DNA from: a virus
Taxonomy: Duplodnaviria > Heunggongvirae > Uroviricota > Caudoviricetes > Crassvirales
Virus record (IMG/VR): IMGVR_UViG_3300033120_000148
Span: 11,764-75,763 of that record
Strand: one strand, 5' to 3'
DNA length: 64,000 bases
In this document: positions 2,090-40,442 of the stretch, piece by piece
How positions within the stretch are numbered: position 1 is the first letter of the stretch
Layout of the letters: the number at the start of each line of letters is the position of its first letter
Notes under the pieces: generated by a model
Databases searched by the model: none
Told to the model about the DNA's origin: nothing
What the model saw: only the letters and a program-made list of their open reading frames with translations
Position numbers and translations under genes: made by a program

Positions 2090-2090
2090 T

Positions 2091-6863: not shown

Positions 6864-6887
6864 TGTAGTATAATTATATATAATATA

Positions 6888-6937
6888 ATGGGTAGATTAA
6901 GTTAAATCTTAGTCTACCCATAATTATTTTAATTAAG
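6888..6937 (+). terminator. Rho-independent terminator: 14-bp stem (ATGGGTAGATTAAG / CTTAGTCTACCCAT, one U.G), 6-nt loop, then AATTATTTTAATT
   Basis: Perfect inverted repeat immediately after the TAA of the 1590-aa gene, followed by the promoter motif at 6958-6978. Confidence 0.6.
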
Positions 6938-6957
6938 TTATTGTATATATCAATAAT

Positions 6958-6978
6958 TTTATTTATCTTTGCAACAAA
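6958..6978 (+). promoter_or_regulatory. Bacteroidota-type promoter, TATCTTTG -7 element inside TTTTATTTATCTTTGCAACAA
   Basis: Second copy of the motif seen at 101-121. Sits ~19 nt upstream of ATG 6990. Confidence 0.5.
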
Positions 6979-6989
6979 ATTTATATAGT

Positions 6990-9416
6990 ATGACTAAGAA
7001 ACAAGTTATAAGAAAGTCTAATAGAACACTAAATATATTTGCAGACGGAGGAACTACTGATAAAAAACCTACTGACAGTAAAGGATCTATTATAAATTCA
7101 TTATCAGGAGTTGGAGGGTCACTAGTAGGATCTATTGGTGGTGGTCTAGTTGGTGGTGGATTATAGTCTGGAGCAGGCTCTGCAATAAGTGGAATTGGAT
7201 CTACTGTTGGTGGAGCAGTTGGAGCAGTTAATCCATTACTGGGTGGTATAATAACAGCAGGCTCTGGTATTGTAGGAGGTTTAACAAATAGGATGTTTGG
7301 TTCTAAATTAAATAATTAGAAAATATCAGATATTTAGAGTTAGAATAATACTTTAAATACTACTATGCTTGATAGTAGTAATAATGATACTGTAGCTAGT
7401 TAGTGGGCATCATAGGGTTTTGGTGATAACTTTACTAGATCTGATATAGGAAAAGATGGCTGGTTTAGTAATAAAGCTGAAAATAAATATAAAGAATTAT
7501 AGCTTCAATAGAATGTTGCTAGAAATAGAATGATGGAGTCATATAATAATGCTGCAGATAATGCTGATGAGACTTAGGACTAGTTAGCTTTAACTAACTT
7601 CGCTGCTTATGGTGGACCACTTAATATATATGCTGAAGGTGGTAATCTACATTAGAAAGCTGTTACATATAAAAATAGGTTAGAAGCTGTAAGAGGACCT
7701 ATGAATGATGACTATGACTATACAGGATACTATATGAAGTATCCTAAAAAAGCAGAGGCAATGATTAAAGGAGATAAAAAAGCTCATTTTACTGATGAAT
7801 TTAAATTACCAAATCATGCTACTTTCTCTGATGAATCTATATACTCTAAACAAAGAGGTGGTGGAACTTAGGAAGGTGGACACTGGGGTTATTCAAATGG
7901 ACATGATACATTTAATGTATCTCAAGATAACTTTAATAATAATCCTAATCTTGGTTAGTATTTTATGCAGAATGAACCTAGTAGTATTCCTATATATAAT
8001 GGGGGAATATTATTACCACAAGTTACTATTTAGGGTAATAGATTTGCAGAAGGTGGTGAACTAGATGATTTAAATAATCATGGAGCTACTTGGTCTAATG
8101 GAGTTACATATATTAATAATGGTGGAACTCATGAAGAAAACCCTAATGAAGGTGTTTAGGTTGGAGTAGATTCTTAGGGAAATCCTAATCTAGTAGAAGA
8201 AGGTGAGGTAAAATGGAATAACTATATATTTAGTAATAGAATATTTGCTAATAAAAAAGGCTTAAAAGCTAGTAATTTGCCTACATCTTTAGATAATAAT
8301 TCATTTGCTTCAGCAGCAGAGAAAATTAGTAAACAATCAAAAGAGATGCCTAATGACCCTATTAGTAAAAGATCATTAAATGTATCTCTCTCAAGATTAT
8401 AGTAGTTACAAGAAAGTATGAGACAAAAGCAAAATAAAACATAGAATAGTAATCCTAATAAATTTGCAATTGGAGGTCCAACTGGAGATACATTTGAAGC
8501 CCCATTCAAAATGAGAGCTGATGGTACTTATCCTATTAATGATACTTATAGTTTACCTATTTAGAACCCAACTAAAGATTCAACTAAACGTGGTAAATTA
8601 TCATTATCTGATACTGCAATATCAGATATGTATAATGATAATTTAGTTAAATCAGCTACAAATACTAAGCTTGGTTTTAAGGTACCAGATATGGTAACTA
8701 CAACTAAGAAACCTCCTAGTGATCCTAATAATTTTGACAAGGGATTACCATTTTTAAGATATGCCCCAGCTATAGGTTCTGGTGTAGCAGCTTTCACTGA
8801 TATGATGGGATGGACTAATAAACCAGACTACAGTGGAATAAATAAAATAAGTGACACTGTAAATCACATGTCACCTGCTTCATATAGACCCATAGGTGAC
8901 TATATGACATATAAGCCACTAGATAGAAATTACTATTAGAATATGCTTGACTCATAGGCTGAATCTACAAAGAGAGGTATAGTTGAATAGTCAGGTGGAA
9001 ATAGAGCTACAGCTATAGCAGGTTTACTTGCAGCAGATTATAATGCTTAGAGTAAAGTTGGTGAACTAGCTAGATAGGCAGAAGAGTATAATCAAGGACT
9101 AAAGGAAAGGGTTAAATCATTTAATAGAGGTACAAACTAGTATAATTCAGACTAGGCTCTAAAAGTAGATGAACTTAATATGAATCTTGATAGACTTAAA
9201 TATGAATCTTCTGTACAACAAGCACAAATGAGATAGGAAGCTTTAGCTAGAGCTACTGCTGCTAGAACTGCTAATATTTCTAACTTCTTTAATAACTTAG
9301 GTGGTATTGGAAGAGAGGATACACAGAAGAATTGGATTAGATCAAACCCTGGTTTCCTATATGATATTAGTGATAACGGTATATCTTATAAAAATAAAAA
9401 GAAAGGAGGTAATTAA
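6990..9416 (+). CDS. Virion structural protein, ~808 aa, Gly-rich N-terminus (GGSLVGSIGGGLVGGGLQSGAGSAISGIGSTVGGAVGAV), TAG recoded
   Basis: Frame 0 from ATG 6990 (the track's 6969 start is a TTG) to TAA 9414-9416. Contains track fragments 6969 and 8628. Many in-frame TAG, no TAA/TGA. Confidence 0.6.
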
Positions 9417-9417
9417 T

Positions 9418-11205
9418 ATGTCAGATTATAGTTTAGTTGTAAATTCACAATTTTAGCCATTTTCATATTAGGAAATGTTAGCTCCTGTGTTACAAGCAAC
9501 CTAGGCACAGCAAGATATAGAGAATCAGTATAGTATGCTTGATTCTGAGGCTAATACTATTTAGTAGAGAGCTTTAACAGATAGTAATTCTGAATGGGCT
9601 AAGAAATATACTACTTATACAAAATAGTTAGAGGACTCTGCTGCAGATTTAGCAGCAAATGGTTTAACTCCATCATCTAGGAGTTCTTTATTAAAATTAA
9701 AAAGAGACTATTCAAGCAATGTAAATCCTGCTTTAATGGCTATCCAAAGATAGGCTGAAATAGCAAGAACTTAGTAGGCTAAAAATGGTGAGGGAGTAAG
9801 AATGGTTTATGGAGCAATGCCTTCCATTGACTAGTTGATAGCTGATCCTAATTTAGATAGAGTTAGTTATAGTGGTAAGGACATTGAAGCTTCTGCTGCA
9901 AATTCTGCTGCTGCTGCTTCTGCAAGACATGTAATAGATAACTTTAAGAAAGACCCAGCTAATGCTGGTTGGATGAAACATATTAAAGAAACTGGATATA
10001 GTTCACAAGCATTTAATGCCTTACTTAATGAAGCTAAGAATTCAAGTGATCCTAATGTAAATATATTAGCATAGATTACAAATTAGGTTAAGCAACAATT
10101 TGGTAACTTTGAAGGAGTATCTGATGTAGATAAACATAGACTAGAAGGTGAAATACTATCAGGTTTATTCAAAGGTTCTGTATATAGAAATGAGGATAAC
10201 TATTAGACAGATCCTATCTATATGGCTAATTTACAATCTAGTCTTGAGGAAGGTAGATAGATTAGAGCTGAGAATAGAGCACTTGCTAGAGAGAACCCAG
10301 GTAATACATCTACTAATGGTGTAGCACCTAATCCTATTAATATGTATTCTCCTAAAGAGAAGAAGGAACAAGCTGATGCAATATCTAAATTTAAGCAGTA
10401 TTTCTATAGAGATAACTCTGGTTAGGTTAAAATGACTTATAAAGGACTACAAGAATATAGAAGAAATGCAGCTATAGTACCAACTGTAGCAGGGTCTGGT
10501 GGAGGAACAGCAGCTTTAATGAATGCAGAAACAGCTATGGGTAGAAAGAGAGGTTATCAACCTACTTAGTTCAAAGTATTTATGGATAAACTTGGTGCTA
10601 ATCATTATATAGATAGTAAGAAATTTAAAGGTGGTAAGGGTTGGCAACCAGGCAATGTAGGTAATCTTTGGTCTAGATATAGTTCTGCAAATAATGCAGG
10701 TAAATATGATGCTACTAAAGCTACTCAATATGAGTATAAAATTGCTAAAGATCAATAGGATCTTACAAAGGATAATATAGTTATGGCTTTAAAGAATTAG
10801 CCAGCATATGAAGTAGCATTTAATGGTACTACATTAGCTAGAACTCATAAAGTTCTTTCATATAGTGATCTATATACAAATGGTAGAGTAGTAGCTACAA
10901 GATTGAGTCCTTATGGTAATACATTTGTAGTCATTGATAAATCAGGAAAGGTTAGTGAATATGAAATGCCTCCTGGAATTAATCCTACTAATGAAGGTAA
11001 CAGAGATAAATTGCTAAAACAATTACCTACAATGTAGTAGGTATTAAAAACTGGCAAAGCTGGTAATCATATATTAAAGCCTAAGGAAAAGGAAGACTTA
11101 CAAAGTCTATATAATTAGAATATATAGAATGCTTACATGTATAACTCTTAGCTCAATGTAACTAATACTACAGAACCTTAGAAGGCTTATCCTTATTCTT
11201 ATTAA
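9418..11205 (+). CDS. Hypothetical virion protein, ~595 aa, TAG recoded
   Basis: ATG overlaps the previous stop (TAATATG). Frame 1 contains track fragment 9835 and ends at a triple TAA (11203-11211). Confidence 0.55.
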
Positions 11206-11213
11206 TAATAAAT

Positions 11214-14200
11214 ATGGGAACATTAAAATAGGTAAAATAGAAACCAATAGATATATTGAAAACTGGTCCTGCCAGTTTTAGAGAACTACAATAGGCTAAC
11301 CAGTCAAACTTTAGTCCTTAGTATTAGGCATTTGTAAATGACTTAAAGATTAAGTCTCAGCCAACATCATTATTTGATGCTGCTGCTTAGGCTTAGCAGG
11401 ATGTTGCTTCTCCATTAAATAATAGTGAAACACCATGGGGTAAAAGTAAATTTGATGCTACTTCAGCTAATGATAACACATTTAATAATTTAGGTGATAT
11501 TAGAGCTGAAAATGAACCTTGGTATGATAAAATAGGTGCAGGTATTTCTAAGGGAGCAGTACTAGCAGGTACTACTTTCTTAGATGGTACTCTTGGTTTA
11601 TTATATGGAGCAGGAACTGCAATTTCTCAAGGAAGAATATCAGGTATTTGGGATAATGATTTCTCAAGGTCTATGCAAAGTATTAATAATTATATGGAGA
11701 AAGAACTTCCAAATTATTATACTTAGAAAGAACAATAGGCAGCTTGGTATAGTCCAGATAATATATTTACAGCTAACTTCCTAGGAGATAAATTTATAAA
11801 GAACTTAGGATTTAGTATTGGTGCTTTTTATTCTGGTGGTGTTACAGCCTCTGGATTAAAATTAAGTCAATTACCATAGTTAATTGAAAAAGTAACAGGT
11901 ATAACAAATGCAGCTAGTCATGTAACTTCTGCTGTAGGTGCAACTATATCTGCTGTTAATGAAGGTAGAATAGAAGCCCTTAATAATTCAGGAGATTGGT
12001 ATAAGGCTTAGAAGACTATACTTGATGACAAATATAAATCAAGAATAGAGGCTATTTAGTAGTAGTATCAAGCTAATGCTAACAGACAAATGATTAAAAC
12101 TGCTGAGGGTTCTTATGTAGATCCTGCTTATTTACAATATAAGCAAGATATAGCTAGAGAATAGAATTCATATCAAGGTACTCTTAGAAAGATGAATGAA
12201 GACAGGTTACATATGGGCAATGTTGATTTATTAATGAACTTACCTATATTAACTGCTTCTAATCTTATATAGTTTGGTAAGATGTATGCTAATGGATTTA
12301 AGACTGCTAGAAAGACTACAAATATTACTGGAGGAATTGGTAATTATGCAGCTAATACATCTAATGCGAGAGCTGCTCTTGCATTCACTAAAAGTGCTTT
12401 ATCAGAAGGTAATGAGGAAGTACTTCAATAGGCTGCTAGTAATATATCTGGAGATTATTATGCTACAGATGTAAATAACTATTATAAAGCTAAAACTGAT
12501 CCTAAGGCAGCTAAAGATACTCTAAGTTGGACAAAAGCTTTTGCTTAGGGAATGAATGAAACATTAAATGATAACTCATCTTGGGAATAGTTCCTTATAG
12601 GTAGTATAACAGGTGCACTTGGTATGCCTAGATTTAGGTCTATTAAGAATGCAGAAGGTCATTTTCAGTTTCCAGTAACTTTAGAAGGAGGTGCTTATAA
12701 TCAGTTTAAAGATTATAGAGAGGAAGCAGCTAGAACTCAAGGAGTAGTAGATTATTTAAATAACAGAGTTAACTCCCCTGATTTTAAGAATTACTATCAA
12801 GGACTTGTTAGACATAATAAGTTCTAGAATGATATGAATTAGGCAGTAGATAATAATGATGATTTTAATTTCAAGAATGCTGAGCATTCTCAATTAGTTT
12901 CTGATGTTTCCATGTTTGCAAAAGCTGGAAAATTAGAAGATCTAAATACATTAGTGAAAGCAGCTTATGATACATCTGATGATAATTTAAAATCTATTAC
13001 TGAGAACACTACAACTAAAACTCCTAATGGTATATCTGGTCCATTTGTAGACTCTAGTGGTAATCCTATGTATGCTACTGAAGCAGGTAAATAGGAGATG
13101 ATTAATAAGCTTACTAAGTCTAAAGATGAGATAATGAAGGAAGTAAATAACTATAGTAAGATAAGAGACTAGATTAATGCAAGTACTAATGAAGCTCTTA
13201 CTGATGATTAGCTTGATGAATTAACTTGGATGACTTCTTAGATAGGTAACTTTGAAGACAGATCTACTGAGATGGCTAAGGATATTAAAACTTCTATATC
13301 TAAAGTTATAGGTAATCTTTCTTCTAAATTATCTTTGGCTACACAAATTAGACATCAAGAAGGTAAGGACCATGCAGATTTAACACCTGTTTACAGACAA
13401 GCAGATAAAGCAGTTATCAACTTAACTAAGACTATGGATAGTTTAAACTCACTACAAAGTCGAAGTGATGATTCTATGCTAAGTGCTTTAACTGATAACC
13501 CAGAAGTTGTAAATTACTTAAATAAGCAAATAGATAATCTAGATGAATCTGTACTAGATAAAGAATCTAAGAAAGATATAAATTAGAAATTGAATGATAT
13601 TCTTAAACTTGGTAAAGCTATAGATGTATTTAGAAGTAAACTAGATGAATACACCAATAACCCTGCTAAATAGTAGGAAGACCATGCTAAGATTGATACT
13701 GATAAAATAAAGGAAGAAGAGGCAAATAAGAAAGCATCTATAAAAGATAGATTAAGAAATGCTAAAGATTTATAGGAGTATAGATCTATATTAAGTGATG
13801 AGGAAGATGACACAGATGATGCTGTAAAAGACTTACAAAATGAGAACCATAACTTAACTATAACTAATAAAAAGATTAATAGTAGGTATAGAAGCTTGCA
13901 AAATGCTATACTTAATAATAAAGATATAGATGATGAAACTAAGTAGGATGCTCTTGATATGTTGGATAATCATTATAATAAAGCCAAATCACTTGGTGAA
14001 TTCAGAGATCCAAACTCAGCAAGTCTAACTGATGAAGACTACTTCAATCATGATACAGGATTTAATGAAGGGTCATCTAATGATAGATTTTAGAAAGCTA
14101 AATATGCAATTGATAAAGCTTTTGAAAAGGTAGTTAAGGATAATAACTTCATGAGGTCTCTAGCTTAGTAGCAGCCATTACAAGATATAGTTAGGCAGAC

Positions 14201-17200
14201 TACTGAAAAAAATGGAGTTAAAATAACTAAATATGGAAGAAGAAAAGGAGATAAAATAATTAATGGTACTGGTCCTAGCATAAGTAAAGATGATATTCCT
14301 GAATCAGAATTAGAAACTATTGAAGGCCTACTTGATGATATGGGAGATACAGCTAAGTTAGAACTGATTGAATTAAGAGAAAGGGATGGAAAATATTCTG
14401 GAACTGTAAGACTTAATGGGCAGATAAGTGGTGCTCCTATTAATGAAAAATTTGAATTTCTATTTGATAAAAATCCAGATAAACTGAGGGGTGTAGATAA
14501 AGAAGAAACAGGAGATAGTAAAACAGCAACAATACCAACAGAAGATAATTCAAATGAATTACCCAGGACAATTAATGAAATACCTGTAGGTGATTATTCA
14601 ATAGATGAAGTTAAAGAAGAGAATAAAAACTCTGATACTAATGATAAGAAACTTACATCTAAAGATAATTCTTAGTACTATATTCCTGCTGTACCAGAGT
14701 TGGATATTGAAGCTAGTAGAAATGGTGATTATAGAAACTTTGATGAAGTTAAAAAGGAGTAGAATCCTAAACTAGATTTCTCTAAAATATATAATTATTT
14801 ATCTAGTAATAATGCTTTTTCATATGTAAATGAAGGTAATCTTAAAGAAGGTGATAGATTAGGTTTTATGATAGATCCTAACTTTAGTGATACTACTATA
14901 TTTATTATTGATAAGAAAAATAATTAGATAGTAGGTTCTCTATTTGAGTCTGATTATAAACTAAAACAGTATGAAGGCTTGGAGCAATTAGTTAACAAGA
15001 TATATCAAGAATATAAAAATAGAGAAGATAGAAATTCTAAATTTATAGCTACTCCTACTACAAGAGTGTCTTAGATGCTTGTAGGTAGAATTCCATATAT
15101 TGCAGATGAAAAGAATCTAAAGAATGTAATAGAAGAAGGTAAAGCTAATAGTACTATTTTTGGCATAGTTAAAAATGGGTCTATTACTACTAATGAAGCT
15201 ATTCCTAGTGATTAGATTATGATGCACTCTGGATTAGATGGTAAAGAAGGTAGATTATATATGTTACTATCTAATGCTGCAGGTAAATATTCACCTGTAG
15301 CTGTGAGAGTAAAGCACTTTAATGCTGATGAATTTAATCTAGATGATGCTACTGTAGCAGAAACACCAATGGGTAAGAGTATTTCTAAAGCTATAAATGA
15401 TTTAGCTAGATCCTCATCTTAGGAAGACATAACTAATGCAATGGTTAATCTAATATAGGATATTCATCTGCAAGATGAGATAATTACTCCTATGGAGAAT
15501 AACAAAGGTAGAGGTATTCTTATAAGTTCTAAGGTCAAGGGAGCAGATGGTAAATATGAAATGGTTGAAATAGATGGTAAATAGTATATTAAAGAAACTA
15601 GAATACCTATTTACTTTACTAAAGAGGTTAAACCAGTAGAAAAGAATGGACTAAGTCTAGAATTTTCATCATTTGAAGCGGCTGATATTCCTAGTAGTAG
15701 TGTAGAGATGAAGCCTGTTTAGGATATAGTAAAGGAAATAACAAATGCTTTATATTCATTGAATAAACCTTTACAAGTAAGTACTGGAAGAATTAATTAG
15801 TCTGGATATAATGCTAGAATAATTAACTCAAATATACTTTCATCAAATATTAGTTCTACTAAAATTAAAGGAAGTTTCTTTACAACAGATTACTTTGATA
15901 AATCAGGAAATCTACATGCTGCTATAACAGTAGCAAATAATAGACCTTCAGTAGGAAGAAAAATTGAAACTGTTGTTGGTGGAAAAGAGAGTGCTATTCC
16001 AGGAACTCCTGTAAATCTTAATAATATATAGTACTATGTTGATTTATCTACTAAGGAAATAAGAGATAAATTCAATAATAAAGTTACTACTAATTAGGAT
16101 TTACTATTTAATCTAGCTTGGGTAAGAAATAACTATGGTAGATTAAAGAGTACTGGTGCTATTAAAAATAATAAAGTTTTATTGCCTGATGGTAGGGCAC
16201 TAGATATTAGTAAATAGAAGATATTAAGTGGAAAAGAGTATGATAAATTTATAGATTCATTAGATGCTGTAAAAGAGAGTACAGAAGCTAATTACTAGGA
16301 TGGATTAAAGGCTGTAGAGCAAATGCAAGAAAACTAGAAATTAGTTGATAGTCAGACCTATTCTATATTGGAAGATGATGGTAATTATTATGATTATACT
16401 CCTGCTGTAGATAAAGCACAATCTAGAGATACTATTTTAGACAATGGTCTTCACACATTAATACTATAGTTTTTTAATTCATCTGAACCTATAGTTAAGC
16501 CTGATACTATGACTAAGAAAGCCTATTAGGCATTAATAGATTAGCTAAATAATATTAAAGAAGCTTTAGAAAATAGAGGTGAGAGATTTATATCTAATAA
16601 TATAACATTATTCTATAAGTATCCAAATGGAGATAGAATAGCTGCTAAGGTAGATATAATGACTATGGATAAAGATGGTAGATTTAGATTATATGCTGTT
16701 AGAAAATAGTCTTAGAATAAAGATGATATACAGAAGATAACTAAAGAATTATCTATTATGTCAAATCTATTTAGTTCTCAATATAACTTGCCTATTTATT
16801 CTATGGCTATAATACCTTTCTCTGTAAAAACAAGAGGAAATAAGGTATCTGAGACTAAATTAGAAAAGGGTATATCTATCAAATAGAATGCAGGTACTGA
16901 TACACCAGCTATAGGTAATATATAGAAAGCTAAATCTACATTACCAATATTTGAAAGTTCCTTAGAAACTCTAAAACCTATTAATGATGTTAATACTGAC
17001 AACAGATCATTAGATTCTGATACAATAGGTTATTTCTAGATTGAAGGTAAGTTACATACTGGTTATTTAATGCCTATAGGTAATATTGAAGGTAATGAGT
17101 TATATTTAACTAGAACTGCCAATATGACAAAAGGATTTAAAGACACTGTAGCTCATGCTGCAACTTATAATTATTTTGTAGTATTTCCTAATGGTGAAAC

Positions 17201-17717
17201 ATTTAATATTAAGAATAATAGCATTACAAAAGATCCTAAGGAAATGGCTAAAACAGCTATTAATCTTTTAAGTAAAAATCCTAATAGAGTAAAGGATATG
17301 TCTACTTCTGATACATTACTTTATAAAAAAGGTGAAGAGGTAACTTAGGAAGTTGAAAAACCTAAATTAACTACTGCTAATCTATTATAGAGTAGTAATA
17401 ATAAGTTAACAGCTTCTCAATAGACTGTATTAAAAGAGTAGGCTGTAGCTGATGTAGATGAAGAATTTGAAGATGATTTGGATCTAGATGATATTACTAA
17501 TATAGGTGATTCTATAATGAGTGGTCAAAAGGCTGATATTACAGATTCTAATAATAGTAAAGATGATAGTAAGATTGATGTAATTACAGATATAGATTAT
17601 GATTCACTATCAAATGATGCTAAAAAGTCACTGACTTCAAAAGGTTGGACAAAAGCAAAGTGGAATAAAGTATCTATTGCAGAGAAGTAGAAAGCTCTAA
17701 ATTGTCTAGGTTTTTAA
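11214..17717 (+). CDS. Giant virion/tail-type protein, ~2167 aa, TAG recoded (dozens of in-frame TAG)
   Basis: Track fragments 12624, 12912, 13272, 14340, 15219, 17070 and 17478 all share frame 0. Read through, they are joined only by TAG codons, ending at TAA 17715-17717. Confidence 0.6.
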
Positions 17718-32388: not shown

Positions 32389-33099
32389 CTATTTAATTTT
32401 TGATTTTAAATTATTTACAATGGTTTCTAACTCTTCTAAAGAGGCATCATTTTTTATTTTATTAGCTCTATAACTAATAATCCAAACATTACCTTTTATA
32501 TAACCTAAACTTGGAATAATTCTATCTAAAGATGGAGAATTATCAGAAGCTTTAGTAGTATTAGGTATTAATGTAATACCTAATAAAGGACATTTATCAG
32601 GTATAGGAATATCATCTATAGTAATATTAAAATCTAAATTTCTAAGTTTAGCTCTTCTTTTAGCTGATCTTAAAAGATACTTTTGATAAGAAATAGTATT
32701 ATTTACTCTCCTATCTTGATCTCTTTTATTAGATTTAATTACATATTCAATAGATTGTCTTTTTATTTTTTCTAAATCTCTTCTTCTTTTTAAGGCTTCT
32801 GGAGTATTTTGTATAATATGCTCACATTCTCTACAGAAACTTCTTCTGCCATATAGAGAATTTCCAACATTAAAATACTTTAAAAGTAATTCTTTACCAC
32901 ATTTAGAACAAGTCTTCTTTTGGTCTATACTAGCCTCTTTAGCTCTTTTCTTTCCTGTATATGCAGGATAATTACCAACTAATACCTTTTGTATAGTTAC
33001 TCTAGAAACATTGAATACACTTCCTATAGACAACAAAGTTTGTCCATTTTGGTACATTTCTATAATTTTATTAATCTGATCTTCAGTAAAATATATCAT
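32389..33099 (-). CDS. HNH-family homing endonuclease with N-terminal HTH, free-standing; uses a TAG stop
   Basis: N-terminal sigma-70 region-4-like HTH (QTLLSIGSVFNVSRVTIQKVL), Zn-ribbon CSKCGK..CREC, C-terminal HNH_3-like motif SLDRIIPSLGYIKGNVWIISYRANKIKND. Stop codon is TAG, with TGA two codons later. Confidence 0.7.
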   Translation of the reverse strand: MIYFTEDQINKIIEMYQNGQTLLSIGSVFNVSRVTIQKVLVGNYPAYTGKKRAKEASIDQKKTCSKCGKELLLKYFNVGNSLYGRRSFCRECEHIIQNTPEALKRRRDLEKIKRQSIEYVIKSNKRDQDRRVNNTISYQKYLLRSAKRRAKLRNLDFNITIDDIPIPDKCPLLGITLIPNTTKASDNSPSLDRIIPSLGYIKGNVWIISYRANKIKNDASLEELETIVNNLKSKIK

Positions 33100-33170: not shown

Positions 33171-33970
33171 TCAGTGAACCCAATGCGTGTTTATTTCTGC
33201 ATCAGCAGGAATAGGCAAAGATTTACAATAAATAGCTGCAGCATCTTCCATTATTTTTTTTAATATAGATGGAAAATCTGTTATTTCTTCGGGGAACTCA
33301 CAATTTATTTCATCATGTACTTCTACACATAATTTAATTTTATTAAAATAGTTATTACTTACTATGTAGTTAAATAACATGATACTAGCTTTCTTTAAAA
33401 TTATAGCTCCAGTTCCCTGAGTTACTACATTTCTAGCTAATCTATCATAATTACCTGCTATTTTAAAATGTTTTCTAACTAGTAAAGCAATACTATCTCC
33501 AGTACCTTTATGATTTATTTTATAATCATCCCAAAATTCTCTAGTAAAACTATTTTGTACTGATAACCATTTATTAAAATCCCACCAATATAATCTAGTT
33601 CCAGTTAAAGGATTGATTAAAATGTAACCATTTTTTCTTACAAATTGTGATCCTTTTTTAGCAAAGGAAGAAACACCTATAAATTCCTTATCTAGCATAT
33701 CAATATAACTCTGAGCCTCTTCTACTGTACAATTAGCAGATTTTGCAATAGTTGGTGCTGCTGCTCCAAACATATATGCAAATTCTACACCTTTTACTTT
33801 CTTTCTCCATTTAGGGGCTAATGCCTTAACATCTGCTGCTGATTTACAACCACATTCTATACATTCTTTTCTGAATACAATCCAAGCAAACATATTATGA
33901 GTGTCTCCACTTCTTTCAAGAAATTCTTTTAAAAATTCTTTATCTTTGTATATATCTGCTCCTAATCTTG
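33171..33970 (-). CDS. polA: Family A DNA polymerase, exon 2 (motifs B and C)
   Basis: KKVKGVEFAYMFGAAAPTIAK is motif B (K..NFG..YG) and LCVEVHDEI is motif C (HDE). GDTHNMFA corresponds to Taq RDIHTETA. The N-terminal boundary is approximate and depends on the splice site. Confidence 0.8.
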
Positions 33971-35029
33971 CACCCATACTAGGGTGGACTATCCCTTCAC
34001 CTTATTTATAAAAACTTAGGTGTACCTATTATAGTCTCTGCACATTTCTATCTACTTTGAAAATTACCATTTAGGTGGATAGACTTTGCTCAGGGTTATC
34101 ATGCCAGATTTTCCCTGAATTTAAGGTATTTACACACTTCTACTTTCATAGAAGGAGAGCCATTTATTGTATTTTCTTTTTATAAAAATACAGGCATTAA
34201 AATATAACATACTACCTATAAATAAAACATCTTTTATTTTATAAACTTCTATATAATATAATTTATTACCATAATTATTAGTTCTTTCTCTTATATAAGA
34301 AGTAATATTATATTTATCTAAAAAATATTTTATTTGTTTTATAAAGTCCAAAGATTTACCACATATAAAAAAGTCAAGATGACCGCTACTTGGATGAAAA
34401 CCTCCATCACCATCAAATATGCCTCTTAATATGTTCCAATTTATAGGTGTATAAATTTTACAATTATAACTTTTATTATAGAAATTGCCTTTCCTTCTTA
34501 GCCAACACTCAGCATCATCATTTACAAATGCTACACTGTACATATAAGATGAATTAATTTTTTGAAGTACTTTTGATACTTTCAAAGAAGGGGATACAAA
34601 GTCTCTAAATTTTTCAACTATGTATCCATCCCTCTCATTTAATCCAAGAGATATACTATAAGTATATTTAGTACCACTTTTTTTACTAATATTTCCATCT
34701 GTAAGTAATAACCCAAGAAAGTAATCAGATAGTTCATCATTACTTTTAAATGGATTATGTTTACATAATCTTTGTACCTTCTGTGTACTTCTTAGAGGTA
34801 TATTATATCTCATAAGGACTCTTCTAATAGAAGTATTATAAGTATTCCACTTCTTTGCAATTTCTACTGTATTTAATCCTTTTTTATAGTCTTCTATAAT
34901 AGAGGATTCTTTTTCTTTTGAAAATTTACTCATATCTACATATTTAAATTAATATGCAAATATAAGCATTATAATCGTAATAACCAAATTATTTATAAAA
35001 TTTATTATGTTATATTAGTATTTTACTAA
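33970..35029 (-). mobile_element. Group I intron (~1.06 kb) inserted in polA immediately after motif A, carrying a LAGLIDADG homing endonuclease ORF
   Basis: Minus-strand 3' part contains group I core elements tgCAGAGACTAtaa (R-like) and AAGGGATAGTCC (S-like), whose GACTA/TAGTC halves can form P7. Exon 1 ends ..CDYSAEEL and exon 2 resumes (R)LGADIY..GDTHNMFA, which together match DYSQIELRxLAH. The HEG has its own ATG/TAA and is flanked by noncoding sequence. Confidence 0.7.
34130..34933 (-). CDS. LAGLIDADG homing endonuclease (intron-encoded)
   Basis: Two LAGLIDADG motifs: LGLLLTDGNIS and LRGIFDGDGGF. Confidence 0.85.
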   Translation of the reverse strand: MSKFSKEKESSIIEDYKKGLNTVEIAKKWNTYNTSIRRVLMRYNIPLRSTQKVQRLCKHNPFKSNDELSDYFLGLLLTDGNISKKSGTKYTYSISLGLNERDGYIVEKFRDFVSPSLKVSKVLQKINSSYMYSVAFVNDDAECWLRRKGNFYNKSYNCKIYTPINWNILRGIFDGDGGFHPSSGHLDFFICGKSLDFIKQIKYFLDKYNITSYIRERTNNYGNKLYYIEVYKIKDVLFIGSMLYFNACIFIKRKYNKWLSFYESRSV

Positions 35030-36400
35030 CTCTTCAGCACTATAATCACATGAAATAAATTTACTACCCTTTTCAGAAATAAAAGAACTTCTAGTTATTT
35101 CATCACTAGGTAATTGTTGTAAATTAGGATAAGAGCATGCTAGACCCTCTCTTTTCTGTTTATCAGAAGGTTTAATAGGTAAACCTTTTAGTTTAGCTAA
35201 ATCAGTATTTATCTGTGTACTACCACTAGATAACCTCCCTGAAATAGTACCTAATTGTTTAAATGATGTATGTATTCTTCCTGTAATAGGATTAATAGCA
35301 TTAAGATGACCCTGACCAAATGAAGTTACTACTTTGTGGTATTCCTGATGTTTAAAATATAGATCTAAGAAAGTATCATCTATACCTTTCTGAGAAATTA
35401 ATTGCTTTTCAATTACACTATCTTTTTCTTCCCCACTATTTTTATCAATAACTGTAGTATTAAATCCTAATAATTTAGCCACTTTAGTAACTTGCTTACT
35501 AGAACCCCAATCTATAGAACTTTTAAGAGTAGTATCATAACCAGTAAATAAATCTCCTTGATAATCTATGTAAGTAAATTGCTTTGTTTTTGGATTACTA
35601 GCAATATAATCATTTAAATCTTTAATAGATTTATTATAATTTATTCTATCAGTATTCATTTTAGCTTTCCACTTAACTTCATCTAGCTTTATACCACACC
35701 ATTCCATATAAGCTATAGCAGGTATATATTCACATTCTAATCTAATGCCATTATAACATCCTTTTTCATTACATAATCTTAACTGAATTAACATTATATC
35801 ATATAAATCTACTACATCATTAGCAGCATATTCAATAACTTTGTCATCTAGACCCCTCCAGATAATCTCTCCTCTTACAGTTTTATCCATTTCCTTATGA
35901 AGATACTTTAATTCTAAAGCCTTTAATGAAAAACTTAATTGATATAATAAATTATCATCTTTATCTTTCACTTTAATATAAGGAAAATCATAATTTCCTT
36001 CTTCATATTCTACAGGAGATATTTTCAAGTAAGGAAAACCTAGATATAATACCTGCTCAACTATCATAGTATCATATACTCTCAAAGGAATAATCTCATA
36101 CTTATAGAGAAATTGTAAATCAAACTTTATATTCTGCCCTATAAGTAACATTCTTTCTAGTTCCCCCTTATATTCTAAAGGAGAAATAGTAGTGCAATCA
36201 ACTACTATTTGAGTTGATTTATCAATACTACCAAATTGCATAGATAGAATATTACATATATGAGCATCTTTGCCAGATGTTTCTGAATCATACTGGCATA
36301 AGTTCCAAGACTTTAGTATATCTATAGATTCCTTTACAGATATATTTTTGAATAGGTCATTAGAAAATAATTCTTGATTTCTTGAAACTAAATATATCAT
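35029..36400 (-). CDS. polA: Family A DNA polymerase, exon 1 (3'-5' exonuclease domain + palm through motif A)
   Basis: Exo I YDSETSG, Exo II GQNIKFDLQFL, Exo III YAANDVVDLYD. Pol motifs TGRIHTSFKQLGTISGRLSS, PNLQQLP and motif A CDYSAEEL. Confidence 0.85.
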
Positions 36401-36903
36401 TACTTATATTTATTATAGGCAACTAATTCATCAAAGTCAAGTATATACTTATACTTAGTAAAGAATGAATTTCCTAAAATACCATGTACAGTTACACCTG
36501 ATTCATTTTTTACATTATCAAAAGCTGCACTTAAATCCATTACACAGAAATCAGATGTAAAATCCTGTTCTTTATAACTAATAGTCATTGAACATATTTT
36601 AGTATCTGTTGAAGTACCTTCTATTCCATATATAGGTATAGATGTAGCATTTTCCTTTAAATGAATATTTAATGTATTAAACACTCTTTCATCAATAACA
36701 GATTTATTTGCACCACTATCTAGTAAGAAATGTAATTTATTAGGGCCATATATAAATGTTATTATTGGAAGATCTGTTAAGTCAAGAGATTCCTTAAATG
36801 ATATTTTTGTGCACTTATTACTGTCTTCTACACCATTAACTATTAATCCAATGGCAACTACAGCCAATAGTACAACTAATATTGTTATCATTTGCATTAT
36901 CAT
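36400..36903 (-). CDS. Retropepsin-like (clan AA) aspartic protease with N-terminal transmembrane anchor
   Basis: N-terminal TM segment MITILVVLLAVVAIGLIV. Catalytic motif FLLDSGANKSVI (hhhDSGA). C-terminal ILGNSFF matches the retropepsin hhG(R/N)D/S motif. Confidence 0.6.
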   Translation of the reverse strand: MIMQMITILVVLLAVVAIGLIVNGVEDSNKCTKISFKESLDLTDLPIITFIYGPNKLHFLLDSGANKSVIDERVFNTLNIHLKENATSIPIYGIEGTSTDTKICSMTISYKEQDFTSDFCVMDLSAAFDNVKNESGVTVHGILGNSFFTKYKYILDFDELVAYNKYK

Positions 36904-36925
36904 ATATATTCAAAGTATTAAATTA

Positions 36926-37465
36926 TTATATTCCTGTAGAACCAAATCCTCCTCTATCAGTATTTGATAGATGATCTACATATTCAATTTCAATCTTAGA
37001 GGTAAATAGCCACTTAATCTTTTGCCACATTGTAGCTTTCTGACTAAGTTGTATTCTAAATTGACAGATTCTACAACCTTCCTCTATCTTAGTATCTCTC
37101 ATAGCTAATGCTGGGAATTTCCATTCATCATTATTTCCACTATATGAATGATCTATAATTCCAAAACTAATAGCACATATAATACCATATTTACTGAAAG
37201 TACTACTTCTTGGAACTAAAATAGCCTCATATCCATTTGGCAATTGCATAGCAATACCTAAAGGTATATTCACTACTTTAGGGAATATAACATCTCTAAA
37301 TTTATTTACAGTCTCACCTTTCCCTTTTTGTCTATGAAGAGTTTCTGCTATTGGACCTTTAAGAGTAACTTGAGAAGCTGTAGGTAAATCAATCCAATCT
37401 CCTTTATCAATAATTTTAATCTCTTGACTTTGTCTTATGTTTTTTACTTTTATTTTTAATTTCAT
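36926..37465 (-). CDS. dut: dUTP pyrophosphatase
   Basis: Motif 2 PRSS, motif 3 GIIDHSYSG, motif 5 DRGGFGSTGI. Confidence 0.85.
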   Translation of the reverse strand: MKLKIKVKNIRQSQEIKIIDKGDWIDLPTASQVTLKGPIAETLHRQKGKGETVNKFRDVIFPKVVNIPLGIAMQLPNGYEAILVPRSSTFSKYGIICAISFGIIDHSYSGNNDEWKFPALAMRDTKIEEGCRICQFRIQLSQKATMWQKIKWLFTSKIEIEYVDHLSNTDRGGFGSTGI

Positions 37466-37648: not shown

Positions 37649-38125
37649 TTATTTTTGTAACTTGGAAGTTATATCTTCAAGAGTTAATAATCCATCTTTA
37701 TCTATATGGGTTCTAAATAGTATTTGATTAGTATCTTTCTTATTTAAGGGACCAAAATCTTCTCTATAAGGACCATATTTGACAAAGTTGAATACTTTAT
37801 AATTTACTTTAGTATAATACCCATATTCCCTACCAGAATACCAGGCTGTTAATAACCCTGTATATTTATCTCTAATAAATGCAGCTAAGTGTTCTACTTC
37901 TAAAGGGGAACTATCTCCACCCATAAAAGCTACACATGTAATTCCTTTATTAATACTTATTAAATTAGCTAGTGCTTCTTCATTTAATTCAATACCAATG
38001 TCATCTGCAAGGTATGCACTATGGCATCCCTTACAGTGACATGGACAATTTGAAATATTAATAGCTAATGTTATTTCATCAGGAATTTCTTGAAAAACAA
38101 TTTTAGTATCTACATATTTCAGCAT
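37649..38125 (-). CDS. nrdG: Anaerobic ribonucleotide reductase activating protein (radical SAM)
   Basis: NCPCHCKGCH cysteine cluster near the N-terminus, 158 aa, adjacent to nrdD. Confidence 0.75.
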   Translation of the reverse strand: MLKYVDTKIVFQEIPDEITLAINISNCPCHCKGCHSAYLADDIGIELNEEALANLISINKGITCVAFMGGDSSPLEVEHLAAFIRDKYTGLLTAWYSGREYGYYTKVNYKVFNFVKYGPYREDFGPLNKKDTNQILFRTHIDKDGLLTLEDITSKLQK

Positions 38126-38298
38126 TATATTGATCTTATAGTTAGTGTATCAGAACACATATAGTGTATTTGACTCATTTTAAATCCCTTACTTTCAAGA
38201 AATTCTTCAACATCATCATTCTGAAGATCTATCTGACTTTCATCAACATGAAGTAATACTATTTCACCCACATTATAATCTAATATACTTATAGTCAT
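38125..38298 (-). CDS. Small acidic ORF (57 aa) translationally coupled between nrdD and nrdG
   Basis: ATGA overlap with the nrdD stop and TAATG overlap with the nrdG start. Absent from the track (<60 aa). Confidence 0.35.
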   Translation of the reverse strand: MTISILDYNVGEIVLLHVDESQIDLQNDDVEEFLESKGFKMSQIHYMCSDTLTIRSI

Positions 38299-40442
38299 AT
38301 TTCTTCCTTTCCATCGCTAAATATTCTTTTCTTTACTTCAATATTTCTAGCTTTACTATAGGAGCTATAAGGTCTAAGAAATCCAATTATCCTTACCCAG
38401 TAATCTATATGTTCACTACCACATATAGGACATACTTTGATAGGAGAATTAACTACATGACCACAATCTGAGCATTCACTAATAGGTATATTAAAAGTAA
38501 AATAATTACACCCTTCCTTTACAGCAAAATCTAGTATCTTTGTGTACTGTGCTTCACTTAGATGTTCATCTAAATGAATATGACAAGCTTGACCTCCTCC
38601 ACAGTATGTATTCACATCTCTATTATGTAGTTTTAATTTATCTAATATAGATATATTTTCATCCCACTGTTTAAAGAAGTAACTACTATACAGATTTTGA
38701 TCTTCAGGTACTTTATAACCATCTTTTTTATCCTGCTCATATAACTTTACAGCTAAATTCTCTCCTGGAATTGCTTCCAAGTTAAATACAAATGGTCTCT
38801 TTTTATCATGAATAGAGTGCTTCTTATTCTCTTCTTGTATAGTAGAGAATATAAGTTTAAGAAAATCCTTATACTCTTTATTATTATCTACTTTTAACCC
38901 TAAGGCTTCTGCTGCTTCACAGTAGCCAATTACTCCTATAGTACAGAATAGCTTCTTCATAAAGATATAACCAGCATTAGAACTGCTATACATCTTTTTA
39001 TCTTCCATTTCATATAGCATAGTTTTATATGCTATTTGATATTTATATACTCTTTCAAGTATACTTTTAAGATAATCTTTAAGAAGTATATTATTATCTT
39101 TACATCTAATCCAATTTTGAACTATTCTATTTAAATTAAGAGTAATTACATTAGCTGAACCAGTCATAATACCTGTTAATCCTATAGTAGAATTAAATGT
39201 ATTATCAACTATTTCATTTTGAACCCTACAACATGAAGAAATACTATTAGGATTATTACTTAGATATAGAAAGAAGCTACCTCCTTTAGCCCATTCTTCT
39301 ACTACCCATTTCTTTGTTTCTAAGTCAAGACAATTATTATTATCATGAAGCATACAAACTGAAGTTACTGGGAAAGTTAGAGGTTTAATTAATCTAAGTT
39401 CTCTATGTAATTCCATAAAGATTCTCTGAAGTTTATCTATTGCTACCCATTCTGGTTTAGAACCATCTGGATAATAGAACTCTCCAAATAATGATTCATA
39501 GTAATACTTATCAAAGAAATTAAGATTAGAGAAAGGACTATTATAGCTTCTATTGCCTGCAGGTTGATTAATACCATATATAAATTGCTTCATTCCTTTC
39601 CTAATAGCATCTTTAATAGTCTTCTTTTTAAGACAATGCTCAGATGAAATAGAGCAGTCTAATTTATCATACCATTTATCACCATATTCTGCAATTACAT
39701 AATAATTTAAAGCTATAATATAGTCTCCCATAGCTACAGCCCCTCTTACCTGTGATGATAATAAGAACATTAAATTAGTAACTTGTCCACTAAATGACTG
39801 AATATCATTAGGTGGTCCAGGAGTTACACCATCAATATCTTTAGTACCATTAAGCATCACAGGATACAAGGTAACAGCTTTACAATAAGGCTTTAATACA
39901 GGTGTTTGGCTCTCATCATGAGGATATATAATGTAATCATCAATGTCTTTCTCATAATCTTTAGATACCTCAGGGAATAATTCATTCAGTTCATCTTTCA
40001 TTCTCTGCCTTTGAATTACTCTATTAGTACTTTTAAATACCTCTCCCTCAAGATTTGCTACATTCTTCATAGTCACATTTGCATTAGCATCTGTTTCTGA
40101 AGAAGTTGCAGCATTATCTGAAGAATTAGTATAGTTATCCATATAATTAAGTCTTTCCTTAATAAATCTAGCATCATCATGATTTTTTCTATATATAATA
40201 TAGGCTTTTGCTACATTATAGAAGCCTTGATTCATTAATTCTCTTTCTATAGTATTTTGTATATTTTCAACAGTTTCTGTAGTTTCTATTTCTTTGTTCC
40301 ATAACACATTTAACTTTTTATAGTCAAAAGTATCATTACTTTCATTACAAGCTTTAAAGGCTTTATTTATAGCTACATAAATCTTTGCCAACTTAAAGTC
40401 CTCTAGTTCACCATTTCTTTTAATTACCTTCATTAAATCCAA
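38295..40442 (-). CDS. nrdD: Anaerobic (class III) ribonucleoside-triphosphate reductase
   Basis: N-terminal ATP-cone (VIKRNGELEDFKLAKI), 715 aa, C-terminal Zn ribbon CSDCGH..CPICG, and glycyl-radical region RIIGFLRP. Confidence 0.8.
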   Translation of the reverse strand: MDLMKVIKRNGELEDFKLAKIYVAINKAFKACNESNDTFDYKKLNVLWNKEIETTETVENIQNTIERELMNQGFYNVAKAYIIYRKNHDDARFIKERLNYMDNYTNSSDNAATSSETDANANVTMKNVANLEGEVFKSTNRVIQRQRMKDELNELFPEVSKDYEKDIDDYIIYPHDESQTPVLKPYCKAVTLYPVMLNGTKDIDGVTPGPPNDIQSFSGQVTNLMFLLSSQVRGAVAMGDYIIALNYYVIAEYGDKWYDKLDCSISSEHCLKKKTIKDAIRKGMKQFIYGINQPAGNRSYNSPFSNLNFFDKYYYESLFGEFYYPDGSKPEWVAIDKLQRIFMELHRELRLIKPLTFPVTSVCMLHDNNNCLDLETKKWVVEEWAKGGSFFLYLSNNPNSISSCCRVQNEIVDNTFNSTIGLTGIMTGSANVITLNLNRIVQNWIRCKDNNILLKDYLKSILERVYKYQIAYKTMLYEMEDKKMYSSSNAGYIFMKKLFCTIGVIGYCEAAEALGLKVDNNKEYKDFLKLIFSTIQEENKKHSIHDKKRPFVFNLEAIPGENLAVKLYEQDKKDGYKVPEDQNLYSSYFFKQWDENISILDKLKLHNRDVNTYCGGGQACHIHLDEHLSEAQYTKILDFAVKEGCNYFTFNIPISECSDCGHVVNSPIKVCPICGSEHIDYWVRIIGFLRPYSSYSKARNIEVKKRIFSDGKEEI

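What the first reader, a model, noticed from the sequence alone, without database searches (positions are those of the whole stretch)
36400..36903. Membrane-anchored retropepsin-like aspartic protease abutting the DNA polymerase start
The 167-aa protein has an N-terminal TM helix, the catalytic DSGA in the retropepsin context (HFLLDSGANKSVID), and the C-terminal ILGNSFF flap/dimer motif. Its stop overlaps the polA start codon. Clan-AA single-domain proteases dimerise to form the active site. A membrane-tethered one in a phage early or replication operon has no obvious standard role; it could process host or phage membrane proteins or act in superinfection exclusion.
Basis: partly seen in the sequence, partly recalled or inferred. 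Interest (0 to 1): 0.6.

Follow-up and report, generated by a model that had tools for sequence, protein, structure and literature searches.

The report
Membrane-tethered retropepsin-like protease of crAss-like phages
The gene is real and encodes a small HIV-protease-like enzyme with a membrane anchor, but it is the ortholog of the already annotated, never characterised "aspartyl protease" gp66 of gut phage crAss001, so it is an ordinary member of a known family whose target is still unknown.

Summary
ORF 36400-36903 (-) encodes a 167-aa protein with an N-terminal hydrophobic helix, HFLLDSGANKSVID and GILGNSFF. Its TAA stop overlaps the PolA ATG by one base.

The window is from an uncultured crAss-like phage resembling the crAss001 family (Steigviridae). 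The protein is 45% identical to crAss001 gp66, annotated "aspartyl protease" in GenBank. The order dUTPase, protease, (small ORF), PolA is conserved. In crAss001 the ortholog is switched on with PolA between 10 and 30 min.

Two points go beyond the annotation. Basic residues always follow the helix (115/115), and some orthologs have a short basic N-terminus, often amphipathic, in place of the helix and no signal peptide. Both place the catalytic domain on the cytoplasmic face of the inner membrane.

The substrate is unknown, and no paper found discusses the gene. Verdict: new member of a known, uncharacterised family; modest interest.

The parts
36400..36903 (-). Whole CDS, 167 aa: membrane-anchored retropepsin-like (clan AA) aspartic protease, ortholog of crAss001 gp66
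   Evidence: ORF list; Pfam PF13650 and PF00077 above their cut-offs; 45% identity over the full length to crAss001 gp66; model pLDDT 89.8
36829..36894 (-). Residues about 4-25: single hydrophobic transmembrane helix with no basic residue before it
   Evidence: Hydropathy 2.9 over 19 residues; model helix 2-28; present in 246 of 264 relatives; K/R lie after the helix in 115 of 115 relatives
36805..36828 (-). Residues 26-33: short charged linker (E26, D27, K30, K33) between the helix and the protease domain. In the family, basic residues cluster in this stretch
   Evidence: Mean of 4.7 K/R in the ~19.5 residues after the helix against 0.11 before it
36766..36804 (-). Residues 34-46, ISFKESLDLTDLP: the most conserved stretch outside the active site. 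It holds the N-terminal strand (model 33-35) that would join the dimer-interface sheet, and lies where retroviral proteases have their N-terminal autoprocessing site
   Evidence: S35, F36, L42 and P46 invariant; E38, D41 and L45 at least 90% conserved. Model has strand 33-35 and helix 37-43. P46-to-D62 spacing equals P9-to-D25 of HIV-1 protease (my own alignment)
36691..36732 (-). Residues 58-71, HFLLDSGANKSVID: active-site loop with catalytic D62
   Evidence: D62 invariant and G64 at least 90% conserved; Asp in 264 of 264 and D-S/T-G in 263 of 264; aligned to LLDTGAD of FIV protease
36601..36639 (-). Residues 89-101: flap hairpin with a glycine-rich tip (YGIEG)
   Evidence: G93 and G96 at least 90% conserved; model strands 89-92 and 98-110, with lower pLDDT (72) as expected for a mobile flap
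36460..36483 (-). Residues 141-148, GILGNSFF: counterpart of the retropepsin I-I-G-R-N segment that supports the active site and dimer
   Evidence: G141 invariant; I142, G144 and F147 at least 90% conserved
36412..36426 (-). Residues 160-164, LVAYN: C-terminal strand, expected partner of the N-terminal strand in the inter-subunit sheet
   Evidence: A162 and Y163 at least 90% conserved; model strand 161-164
36398..36402 (-). TAATG: protease stop overlapping the PolA start by one base, suggesting translational coupling
   Evidence: Sequence read directly
36926..37465 (-). Upstream neighbour: dUTPase, 22 nt before the protease start
   Evidence: Pfam PF00692, E 6.3e-09; same neighbour in crAss001 and in L003-L006
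35015..36400 (-). Downstream neighbour: N-terminal part of family A DNA polymerase
   Evidence: Pfam DNA_pol_A_exo1 and DNA_pol_A

Best explanation
This is the crAss001-gp66-type protease of crAss001-like (Steigviridae) phages. It is a single-pass membrane protein with about three residues outside, a helix at residues ~4-25, and a short linker (basic in most of the family). A 130-residue clan-AA (retropepsin) domain follows and faces the cytoplasm.

Each chain carries only one catalytic Asp (D62). As in all single-domain retropepsins, two chains must therefore pair, through their conserved N- and C-terminal strands, to build the D62/D62' active site under two glycine-tipped flaps.

The gene is transcribed and probably translationally coupled with dUTPase and DNA polymerase I in the middle (replication) phase. 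The enzyme would then carry out limited proteolysis of one or a few membrane-proximal targets at the inner face of the host cytoplasmic membrane.

Shown here: the fold, the intact and conserved catalytic and flap motifs, the anchor, the synteny, and (for the crAss001 ortholog) the middle-phase timing.

Inferred: dimerisation, the cytoplasmic orientation, and catalytic activity.

Unknown: the substrate.
For: Fold and family:
- PF13650 scores 30.2 bits (cut-off 24.3) and PF00077 scores 22.7 (cut-off 20.7).
- The family profile hits FIV, EIAV and HIV proteases at E 2e-7 to 4e-4.
- The model has pLDDT 89.8.
- Foldseek gives probability 1.0 to Ddi1 RVP domains, ApRick and lentiviral proteases.

Catalytic competence:
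- D62 and G141 are invariant.
- G64, G93, G96, I142 and G144 are at least 90% conserved.
- The Asp is present in 264 of 264 relatives.

Dimer: the terminal strands are among the best conserved positions (S35 and F36 invariant; A162 and Y163 at least 90%).

Orientation:
- In 115 of 115 relatives K/R follow the helix (mean 4.7) and are nearly absent before it (mean 0.11); 103 relatives have none before it.
- Only 1 of 120 has a lipobox-like motif.
- 18 of 264 lack the helix. About 12 of these have instead a short basic N-terminus, significantly amphipathic in 4 of the 12 tested, with no signal peptide.
- One such gene has no room for an upstream helix.

Context:
- The order dUTPase, protease, (small ORF), PolA holds in crAss001, DAC17, L003-L006 and L008-L012.
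- No terminator-like site lies between NrdD and PolA.

Timing: crAss001_66 rises by log2 +10.4/+9.0 between 10 and 30 min, like PolA and dUTPase (PMC8375218 supplement; text).
Against: - No activity, dimer or topology was measured. No multimer model could be run.
- The positive-inside rule is statistical. A short uncharged N-terminus is also compatible with unusual export.
- In this particular protein the linker carries as many acidic as basic residues (E26, D27 against K30, K33). Its own charge bias is therefore weaker than the family mean, and the orientation argument rests mainly on the family.
- One relative has D-T-A instead of D-T-G.
- No candidate substrate emerged from gene neighbourhoods. 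The gene between the protease and PolA (crAss001 gp65) is not always present.
- Two more distant phages with related PolA lack the protease, so it is not tied to the polymerase as such.
Confidence: 0.6

Rival explanations
1. The helix is a signal anchor or a cleavable signal peptide, and the protease works in the periplasm or on the envelope. This would resemble Caulobacter PerP, Pseudomonas Rlo proteins or Rickettsia APRc, for example by destroying receptors or remodelling envelope proteins for superinfection exclusion.
For: Characterised bacterial retropepsin-like enzymes are mostly extracytoplasmic. APRc has its catalytic domain outside the cell (PMC4140852). PA0462 is described as periplasmic (row 14). 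In this protein the linker is not net basic (E26, D27, K30, K33).
Against: No basic n-region: 103 of 115 relatives have no K/R before the hydrophobic core, while basic residues cluster after it in 115 of 115. The hydrophobic stretch is about 20 residues or more. Only 1 of 120 has a lipobox-like motif. Orthologs without the helix have no signal peptide at all.
Confidence: 0.15
2. The anchor is temporary. The enzyme cuts itself at the invariant S35-F36/K37-E38 region and is released as a soluble dimer, as retroviral proteases and APRc do. It then acts on soluble phage or host proteins, possibly at the replisome. A Ddi1-like role in removing proteins stuck on DNA is one such possibility.
Against: The same conservation is explained by the N-terminal strand being part of the dimer interface. 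The linker is only about 8 residues, which is awkward for self-cleavage in cis. The Ddi1 similarity is at fold level only (10-15% identity), with no UBL, UBA or HDD domains. If release were the aim, the anchor would not need to be kept in 246 of 264 relatives.
Confidence: 0.15
3. It is a virion maturation (prohead) protease.
For: Phages with HK97-fold capsids often encode a maturation protease. Shkoporov et al. noted some mismatch between predicted and observed sizes of crAss001 virion proteins (PMC6235969).
Against: The gene lies in the replication module and is a middle gene. It is not among the reported virion proteins. The crAss001 structural atlas mentions no proteolysis or cleavage. It is membrane-anchored. 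It has no similarity to the known prohead protease families, with no PHROG hit.
Confidence: 0.03
4. It is a catalytically dead retropepsin fold used only as a membrane-bound binding or dimerisation module.
For: Clan-AA pseudo-proteases exist. One relative has D-T-A.
Against: The Asp is present in 264 of 264 relatives and D-S/T-G in 263 of 264. The flap glycines and the G-I-L-G segment are conserved. This pattern is expected only under selection for catalysis.
Confidence: 0.04

Closest known systems
crAss001 gp66 (AXQ62709.1, 'aspartyl protease') and its orthologs in Steigviridae (DAC15/17, PhiCrAssBcn1-24, cr85_1, cr128_1, Kehishuvirus, Kolpuevirus, IAS virus)
   Same: 45% identity over the full length, and 45-51% to the other deposited phages. 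Same size, same N-terminal helix plus retropepsin domain. Same position after dUTPase and before PolA. A BFVD model of a relative superposes over the whole length with TM-score 0.82.
   Different: Here the protease abuts PolA directly, without the gp65-like small ORF and without the HNH gene gp67. The upstream ribonucleotide reductase is NrdD/NrdG rather than class II. No deposited phage is close at the DNA level.
Rickettsia APRc / ApRick (PDB 5c9b, 5c9f)
   Different: 14-16% identity. APRc is 231 aa with a longer membrane region (the soluble domain starts near residue 87). It sits in the outer membrane with its domain outside the cell. No NCBIfam model matches the phage protein at all. The phage protein has one helix and a predicted cytoplasmic domain.
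Retroviral retropepsins (FIV, EIAV, HIV-1; MEROPS family A2)
   Same: These are the best sequence matches among solved structures (profile E 2e-7), with 18-25% identity in structural alignments. They share D-T/S-G-A, a glycine-rich flap and the G-R-N-like segment. The Pro-to-Asp spacing is identical (P46-D62 against P9-D25).
   Different: The phage protein is not cut out of a polyprotein and has a membrane helix. It has extra helices at 37-43 and 125-135, which I recall as more typical of Ddi1/APRc-type domains. The R87 position is N, S or T.
Ddi1/DDI2 retroviral-protease-like domain
   Different: 10-15% identity and no UBL, HDD or UBA domains. Ddi1 is a soluble eukaryotic protein.
Membrane-associated regulatory aspartic proteases of bacteria (SpoIIGA, PerP) and the PF05618 group (RimB, P. 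aeruginosa PA0462/Rlo, Lpg0085)
   Different: No Pfam hit to those families. The membrane architecture and the cellular compartment differ.

Membership tests
Clan AA retropepsin-like aspartic peptidases (Pfam PF13650 Asp_protease_2 / PF00077 RVP) | Score above the curated Pfam cut-off | tested here: met
   PF13650 scores 30.2 against 24.3. PF00077 scores 22.7 against 20.7. PF13975 scores 27.4, just below its cut-off of 28.2.
Clan AA retropepsin-like aspartic peptidases (Pfam PF13650 Asp_protease_2 / PF00077 RVP) | Catalytic D-T/S-G-A/S after a hydrophobic strand, conserved among relatives | tested here: met
   LLDSGA at residues 60-65. D62 invariant and G64 at least 90% conserved in 68 sequences. 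Asp in 264 of 264 and D-S/T-G in 263 of 264.
Clan AA retropepsin-like aspartic peptidases (Pfam PF13650 Asp_protease_2 / PF00077 RVP) | Retropepsin fold | tested here: met
Clan AA retropepsin-like aspartic peptidases (Pfam PF13650 Asp_protease_2 / PF00077 RVP) | Flap hairpin with a glycine-rich tip, and a C-terminal I-x-G-(R/N) segment | tested here: met
   G93 and G96 at least 90% conserved. G141 invariant; I142 and G144 at least 90% conserved. Hairpin strands at 89-92 and 98-110 in the model.
Clan AA retropepsin-like aspartic peptidases (Pfam PF13650 Asp_protease_2 / PF00077 RVP) | Homodimer through an N/C-terminal strand sheet | not testable with these tools
   Only single-chain prediction is offered. 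Indirect support: the terminal strands are among the most conserved positions (S35, F36, A162, Y163).
Clan AA retropepsin-like aspartic peptidases (Pfam PF13650 Asp_protease_2 / PF00077 RVP) | Asp-dependent endopeptidase activity | not testable with these tools
   Needs biochemistry.
crAss001 gp66-type protease of Steigviridae | Full-length orthology, with the same length and architecture | tested here: met
   45% identity over 165 aa, E 1e-45. 41 of 51 deposited crAss-like phage records cover at least 80% of the query.
crAss001 gp66-type protease of Steigviridae | Position in the replication module between dUTPase and PolA | tested here: met
   for the window. for relatives.
APRc-type bacterial retropepsins (NCBIfam TIGR02281, recalled from memory) | Match to a curated NCBIfam model | tested here: not met
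   No NCBIfam family matches even at E<=10. ApRick gives only E 0.07 in the profile search against PDB sequences.
Ddi1 family | UBL, HDD or UBA domains flanking the RVP domain | tested here: not met
   The protein has 167 aa. Outside the RVP region there is only a helix and a linker, and no other Pfam domain.
Phage prohead (maturation) proteases | Similarity to known prohead protease families and a location in the head-assembly module | tested here: not met
   No PHROG match. Pfam hits are only to clan AA families. The gene lies in the replication module.
PADLOC candidate defence system PDC-M08 (component B) | Match to the PDC-M08B model, plus the partner gene PDC-M08A next to it | tested here: inconclusive
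   PDC-M08B matches at E 7e-8, 30.5 bits, over positions 26-124 of the 127-position profile. That score is about the same as for the generic Pfam clan-AA models. The neighbours are dUTPase and PolA, and the partner model was not searched. I read the match as shared domain, not membership.

The most novel reading that the evidence does not exclude
The family would be the first functional aspartic protease described in a tailed phage. In this reading it is a cytoplasm-facing, membrane-tethered retropepsin that the most abundant human gut phage lineage deploys in the middle phase. It would cut a specific host membrane-associated protein, for example a membrane-bound defence effector, an anti-sigma factor, or a component of division or capsule synthesis. 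The invariant S-F-K-E site might allow self-release. The distant match to component B of the candidate defence system PDC-M08 leaves open an arms-race link.
Probability: 0.25. Interest if true: 0.6.

Novelty: new member of a known kind. Interest (0 to 1): 0.3.

Why it matters
CrAss-like phages are the dominant viruses of the human gut, and how they take over Bacteroides cells is largely unknown. A conserved middle-phase protease is a concrete handle on that question. The family comprises 340 clusters at 50% identity with E<=1e-30. The protein is small, it has a predicted single catalytic residue to mutate, and HIV-type inhibitors may serve as probes.

The cytoplasmic orientation proposed here narrows the search for substrates to the inner face of the membrane. 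The gene itself is not a discovery: it has been annotated as an aspartyl protease since the crAss001 genome of 2018.

Tried and rejected
- PHROGs gave no family, only a 0.11 hit to the helix. NCBIfam gave none.
- Megablast of 20 kb around the gene against deposited phages found nothing, so the phage has no close cultured or deposited relative.
- Six literature searches found no paper that discusses a crAss-like or phage retropepsin. The crAss001 papers, the Crassvirales review, the Yutin preprint and the B. cellulosilyticus Crassvirales paper never mention a protease.
- The PolA-seeded scan of viral contigs gave only 7 loci. That is too few for a presence/absence statistic.
- The scan of GTDB genomes gave 9 contigs in MAGs of mutually inconsistent taxa. 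I read these as mis-binned phage contigs rather than cellular homologs.
- The sigma-70 promoter scan was at chance level (66 found, 69 expected) and does not cover Bacteroides promoters.
- Rfam found no group I intron in the split PolA.
- I considered and rejected a prohead protease, a pseudo-enzyme and a Ddi1 family member (see rivals and membership tests).
- I considered the best sequence matches being lentiviral proteases as a hint of special kinship. I set it aside, because both are A+T-rich, K/N/I-rich sequences and the structural scores do not favour them over Ddi1 or ApRick.

Full report
**1. The observation**

The ORF is exactly as described. It runs 36400..36903 on the minus strand, starts with ATG and encodes 167 aa: MIMQMITILVVLLAVVAIGLIVNGVEDSNKCTKISFKESLDLTDLPIITFIYGPNKLHFLLDSGANKSVID...GILGNSFFTKYKYILDFDELVAYNKYK. 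On the minus strand its end reads TAATG, so the TAA stop shares one base with the ATG of the next ORF. That ORF (35015-36400) carries the 3'-5' exonuclease domain and the start of the family A polymerase domain.

Residues 4-25 are strongly hydrophobic, with a mean Kyte-Doolittle value of 2.9. They form a helix in the model.

It is the counterpart of the retropepsin I-I-G-R-N segment, not the flap. The flap is the hairpin around YGIEG.

**2. What it is**

Sequence evidence:
- Pfam places the protein in clan AA. Asp_protease_2 scores 30.2 bits (cut-off 24.3) and RVP scores 22.7 (cut-off 20.7).
- The single sequence hits FIV protease only weakly (E 0.08).
- A profile of 68 relatives reaches FIV, EIAV and HIV proteases at E 2e-7 to 4e-4.

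Structure evidence:
- A model built on that alignment has mean pLDDT 89.8.
- It shows a helix at 2-28, a short strand at 33-35, a helix at 37-43 and then a beta barrel.
- Foldseek against the PDB returns only retropepsin-like domains among its 50 best: Ddi1, Rickettsia ApRick, and EIAV, FIV and HIV proteases.

Conservation evidence:
- In the alignment D62 and G141 are invariant.
- G64, the flap glycines G93 and G96, I142 and G144 are at least 90% conserved.
- Across all 264 relatives retrieved, the Asp is always present and D-S/T-G fails once, as D-T-A.

**3. Where it belongs**

A translated search of deposited phages finds 51 records (52 at the loosest threshold). All but the weakest one are crAss-like. 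They include crAss001, DAC15/17, PhiCrAssBcn1-24, Kehishuvirus, Kolpuevirus, IAS virus and several uncultured 'cr' genomes, at 26-51% identity. Most are already annotated 'aspartyl protease' or 'retropepsin-like protein'. BFVD carries the same names.

The crAss001 ortholog is gp66, 45% identical over the full length. In crAss001 the gene order is RNR, dUTPase, HNH, gp66, gp65, PolA. In the window it is NrdD, NrdG-like activase, dUTPase, protease, PolA.

The same dUTPase, protease, (small ORF), PolA order holds on every related contig that carries the protease. Two more distant phages with related PolA lack the protease.

The family is large:
- 196 homologs were found in the word-indexed search.
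- The exhaustive search found 340 clusters at 50% identity with E<=1e-30.
- The 150 best of these are nearly all 145-180 aa.
- Many sit on contigs of 90-108 kb, the genome size of these phages.

It appears restricted to phages. The only hits in 185,579 reference genomes are nine contigs in MAGs of mutually inconsistent taxa, which I take to be binning errors.

The window itself has no close deposited relative.

**4. How it most likely works**

*Dimer.* A single-domain retropepsin has half an active site, so it must dimerise. This is established for MEROPS family A2 and was shown for APRc (PMC4140852). Consistent with that, the terminal strands that form the inter-subunit sheet in retropepsins are among the best conserved positions here (S35, F36, A162, Y163).

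*Orientation.* Two observations bear on it.
- In 115 of 115 relatives with a helix, basic residues follow it (mean 4.7 in about 19.5 residues). They are almost absent before it (mean 0.11; 103 relatives have none). By the positive-inside rule the tiny N-terminus is outside and the protease domain is in the cytoplasm. The segment does not look like a signal peptide, and only 1 of 120 has a lipobox-like motif. In the window protein itself the linker is not net basic (E26, D27, K30, K33), so this argument rests on the family rather than on this one sequence.
- 18 of 264 relatives lack the helix. A few look like truncated gene calls. About twelve have a short cationic N-terminus such as MIKKLLNRLFRRK or MIKKIINKILN. 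Four of the twelve tested are significantly amphipathic (hydrophobic moment 0.71-0.93, reached by at most 2% of shuffles). In one case the upstream gene ends 20 nt before the start and the stop-to-stop frame leaves no room for a helix. Such proteins cannot be exported, so at least in them the domain works in the cytoplasm, probably still at the membrane surface.

[quoted passage not shown] They are -0.25/+0.49 at 10 min and +10.36/+9.00 at 30 min. PolA (+10.9/+8.8) and dUTPase (+10.4/+8.2) behave the same way, whereas early genes jump at 10 min (PMC8375218 supplement). The authors' text defines middle genes as starting at 10-30 min.

In the window no terminator-like site separates NrdD from PolA, and the stop/start overlap suggests coupled translation.

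*Proposal.* I therefore propose a dimeric aspartic endopeptidase held on the inner face of the cytoplasmic membrane. It would be made together with the replication proteins and would cut one or a few membrane-proximal targets. The substrate is unknown, and nothing in the neighbourhood names it.

**5. Rivals**

- *A periplasm-facing enzyme.* This would resemble most characterised bacterial relatives but is disfavoured by the family's charge pattern and by the helix-less orthologs.
- *Self-release at the invariant S-F-K-E stretch.* This remains possible. The stretch lies where retroviral proteases have their N-terminal processing site, and APRc autoprocesses. The conservation is equally explained by the dimer-interface strand.
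- *A prohead protease role.* This has no support. The gene is in the wrong module and of the wrong timing. gp66 is not among the reported virion proteins, and the structural atlas mentions no cleavage.
- *A dead enzyme.* This is unlikely given the conservation pattern.

**6. Comparison with known families**

The protein is a member of clan AA by every testable criterion, and it is an ortholog of crAss001 gp66. It is not an APRc-family member, since no NCBIfam model matches. It is not a Ddi1 family member, since it has no accessory domains.

It matches component B of the PADLOC candidate defence system PDC-M08 at E 7e-8. I read this as shared domain only.

**7. Novelty and verdict**

The identification repeats a database annotation that dates from 2018. 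No paper in the searchable library discusses the gene.

What this analysis adds:
- the size and uniformity of the family;
- the invariant motifs;
- the argument for a cytoplasmic-face location;
- the helix-less variant with a basic, often amphipathic N-terminus.

I rate it a new member of a known kind, of modest interest (0.3). The open biological question is what a middle-phase membrane protease does for the dominant gut phage lineage. That question is worth an experiment but is not in itself surprising.

Noticed in passing
window 79-17717 (+ strand): Under the standard bacterial code this 17.6-kb stretch has only two ORFs of 150 aa or more (353 aa in total). If TAG is read through it resolves into seven long co-directional ORFs (5941 aa, including proteins of 1594, 819, 657 and 2183 aa). 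Reading through TGA or TAA does not help. This looks like TAG-recoded late genes, as reported for beta-group crAss-like phages (bioRxiv 10.1101/2020.07.20.212944). The window holds no tRNA gene, so any suppressor tRNA lies elsewhere. The minus-strand genes, including the protease, use the standard code.
   Followed up: partly
window 33171-36400 (- strand): The family A DNA polymerase is split. The N-terminal part is 35015-36400 and ends ...CDYSAEELVKY*, just after what looks by eye like polymerase motif A. A free-standing LAGLIDADG endonuclease ORF follows at 34130-34933, and the C-terminal part at 33171-33977. This looks like an intron carrying a homing endonuclease, but Rfam finds no group I intron even at E<=1.
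   Followed up: partly
window 32389-33099 (- strand): A 236-aa ORF lies just downstream of PolA. It has two CxxC pairs and, by eye, an HNH-like C-terminal motif (SLDRI...GY..GN...N..K). It has no Pfam hit at E<=1e-3, so it may be a second homing-type endonuclease. The only terminator-like hairpin of the region (33178-33157) lies between it and PolA.
   Followed up: no
window 36400-36903 (protein level): The protease matches PADLOC model PDC-M08B (E 7e-8, positions 26-124 of the 127-position profile). A candidate anti-phage defence system therefore also uses a small retropepsin-like protein. No paper on PDC-M08 was found.
   Followed up: partly
window 37649-40442; L001 3274-5850; L003 2555-5461: The ribonucleotide reductase at the same position in the module differs between relatives. 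This window and L005/L006 have anaerobic NrdD plus an activase. crAss001 has a B12-dependent class II enzyme. L003 has an RNR large-subunit-type enzyme (PF02867) interrupted by an intein with an HNH domain.
   Followed up: no
L015-L023 (GTDB genome contigs): Nine contigs carry the protease gene in MAGs labelled Bacilli, Clostridium, Spirochaetia, Bifidobacterium, Muribaculaceae, Waltera and Agathobacter. Two of the contigs are 89-96 kb long. They are most likely crAss-like phage contigs binned into the wrong genomes.
   Followed up: no
window 35015-37465: The gene order dUTPase, retropepsin, polymerase recalls the dUTPase-protease-reverse transcriptase order of betaretroviruses (my own knowledge). 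The best sequence matches among solved structures are proteases of FIV and EIAV, lentiviruses that also encode a dUTPase. This is probably coincidence plus shared A+T-rich composition, and I did not test it.
   Followed up: no
L007 3932-4321 (Bacteroides phage C3_41T2LP, OR296439.1): A 74-kb Bacteroides uniformis phage carries a shorter gene (about 129 aa) annotated 'aspartyl protease'. It lies near the tape-measure and antirepressor genes and matches the family profile at E 5e-12. Retropepsin-like genes therefore occur in a different module of at least one phage that its record does not assign to Crassvirales.
   Followed up: partly
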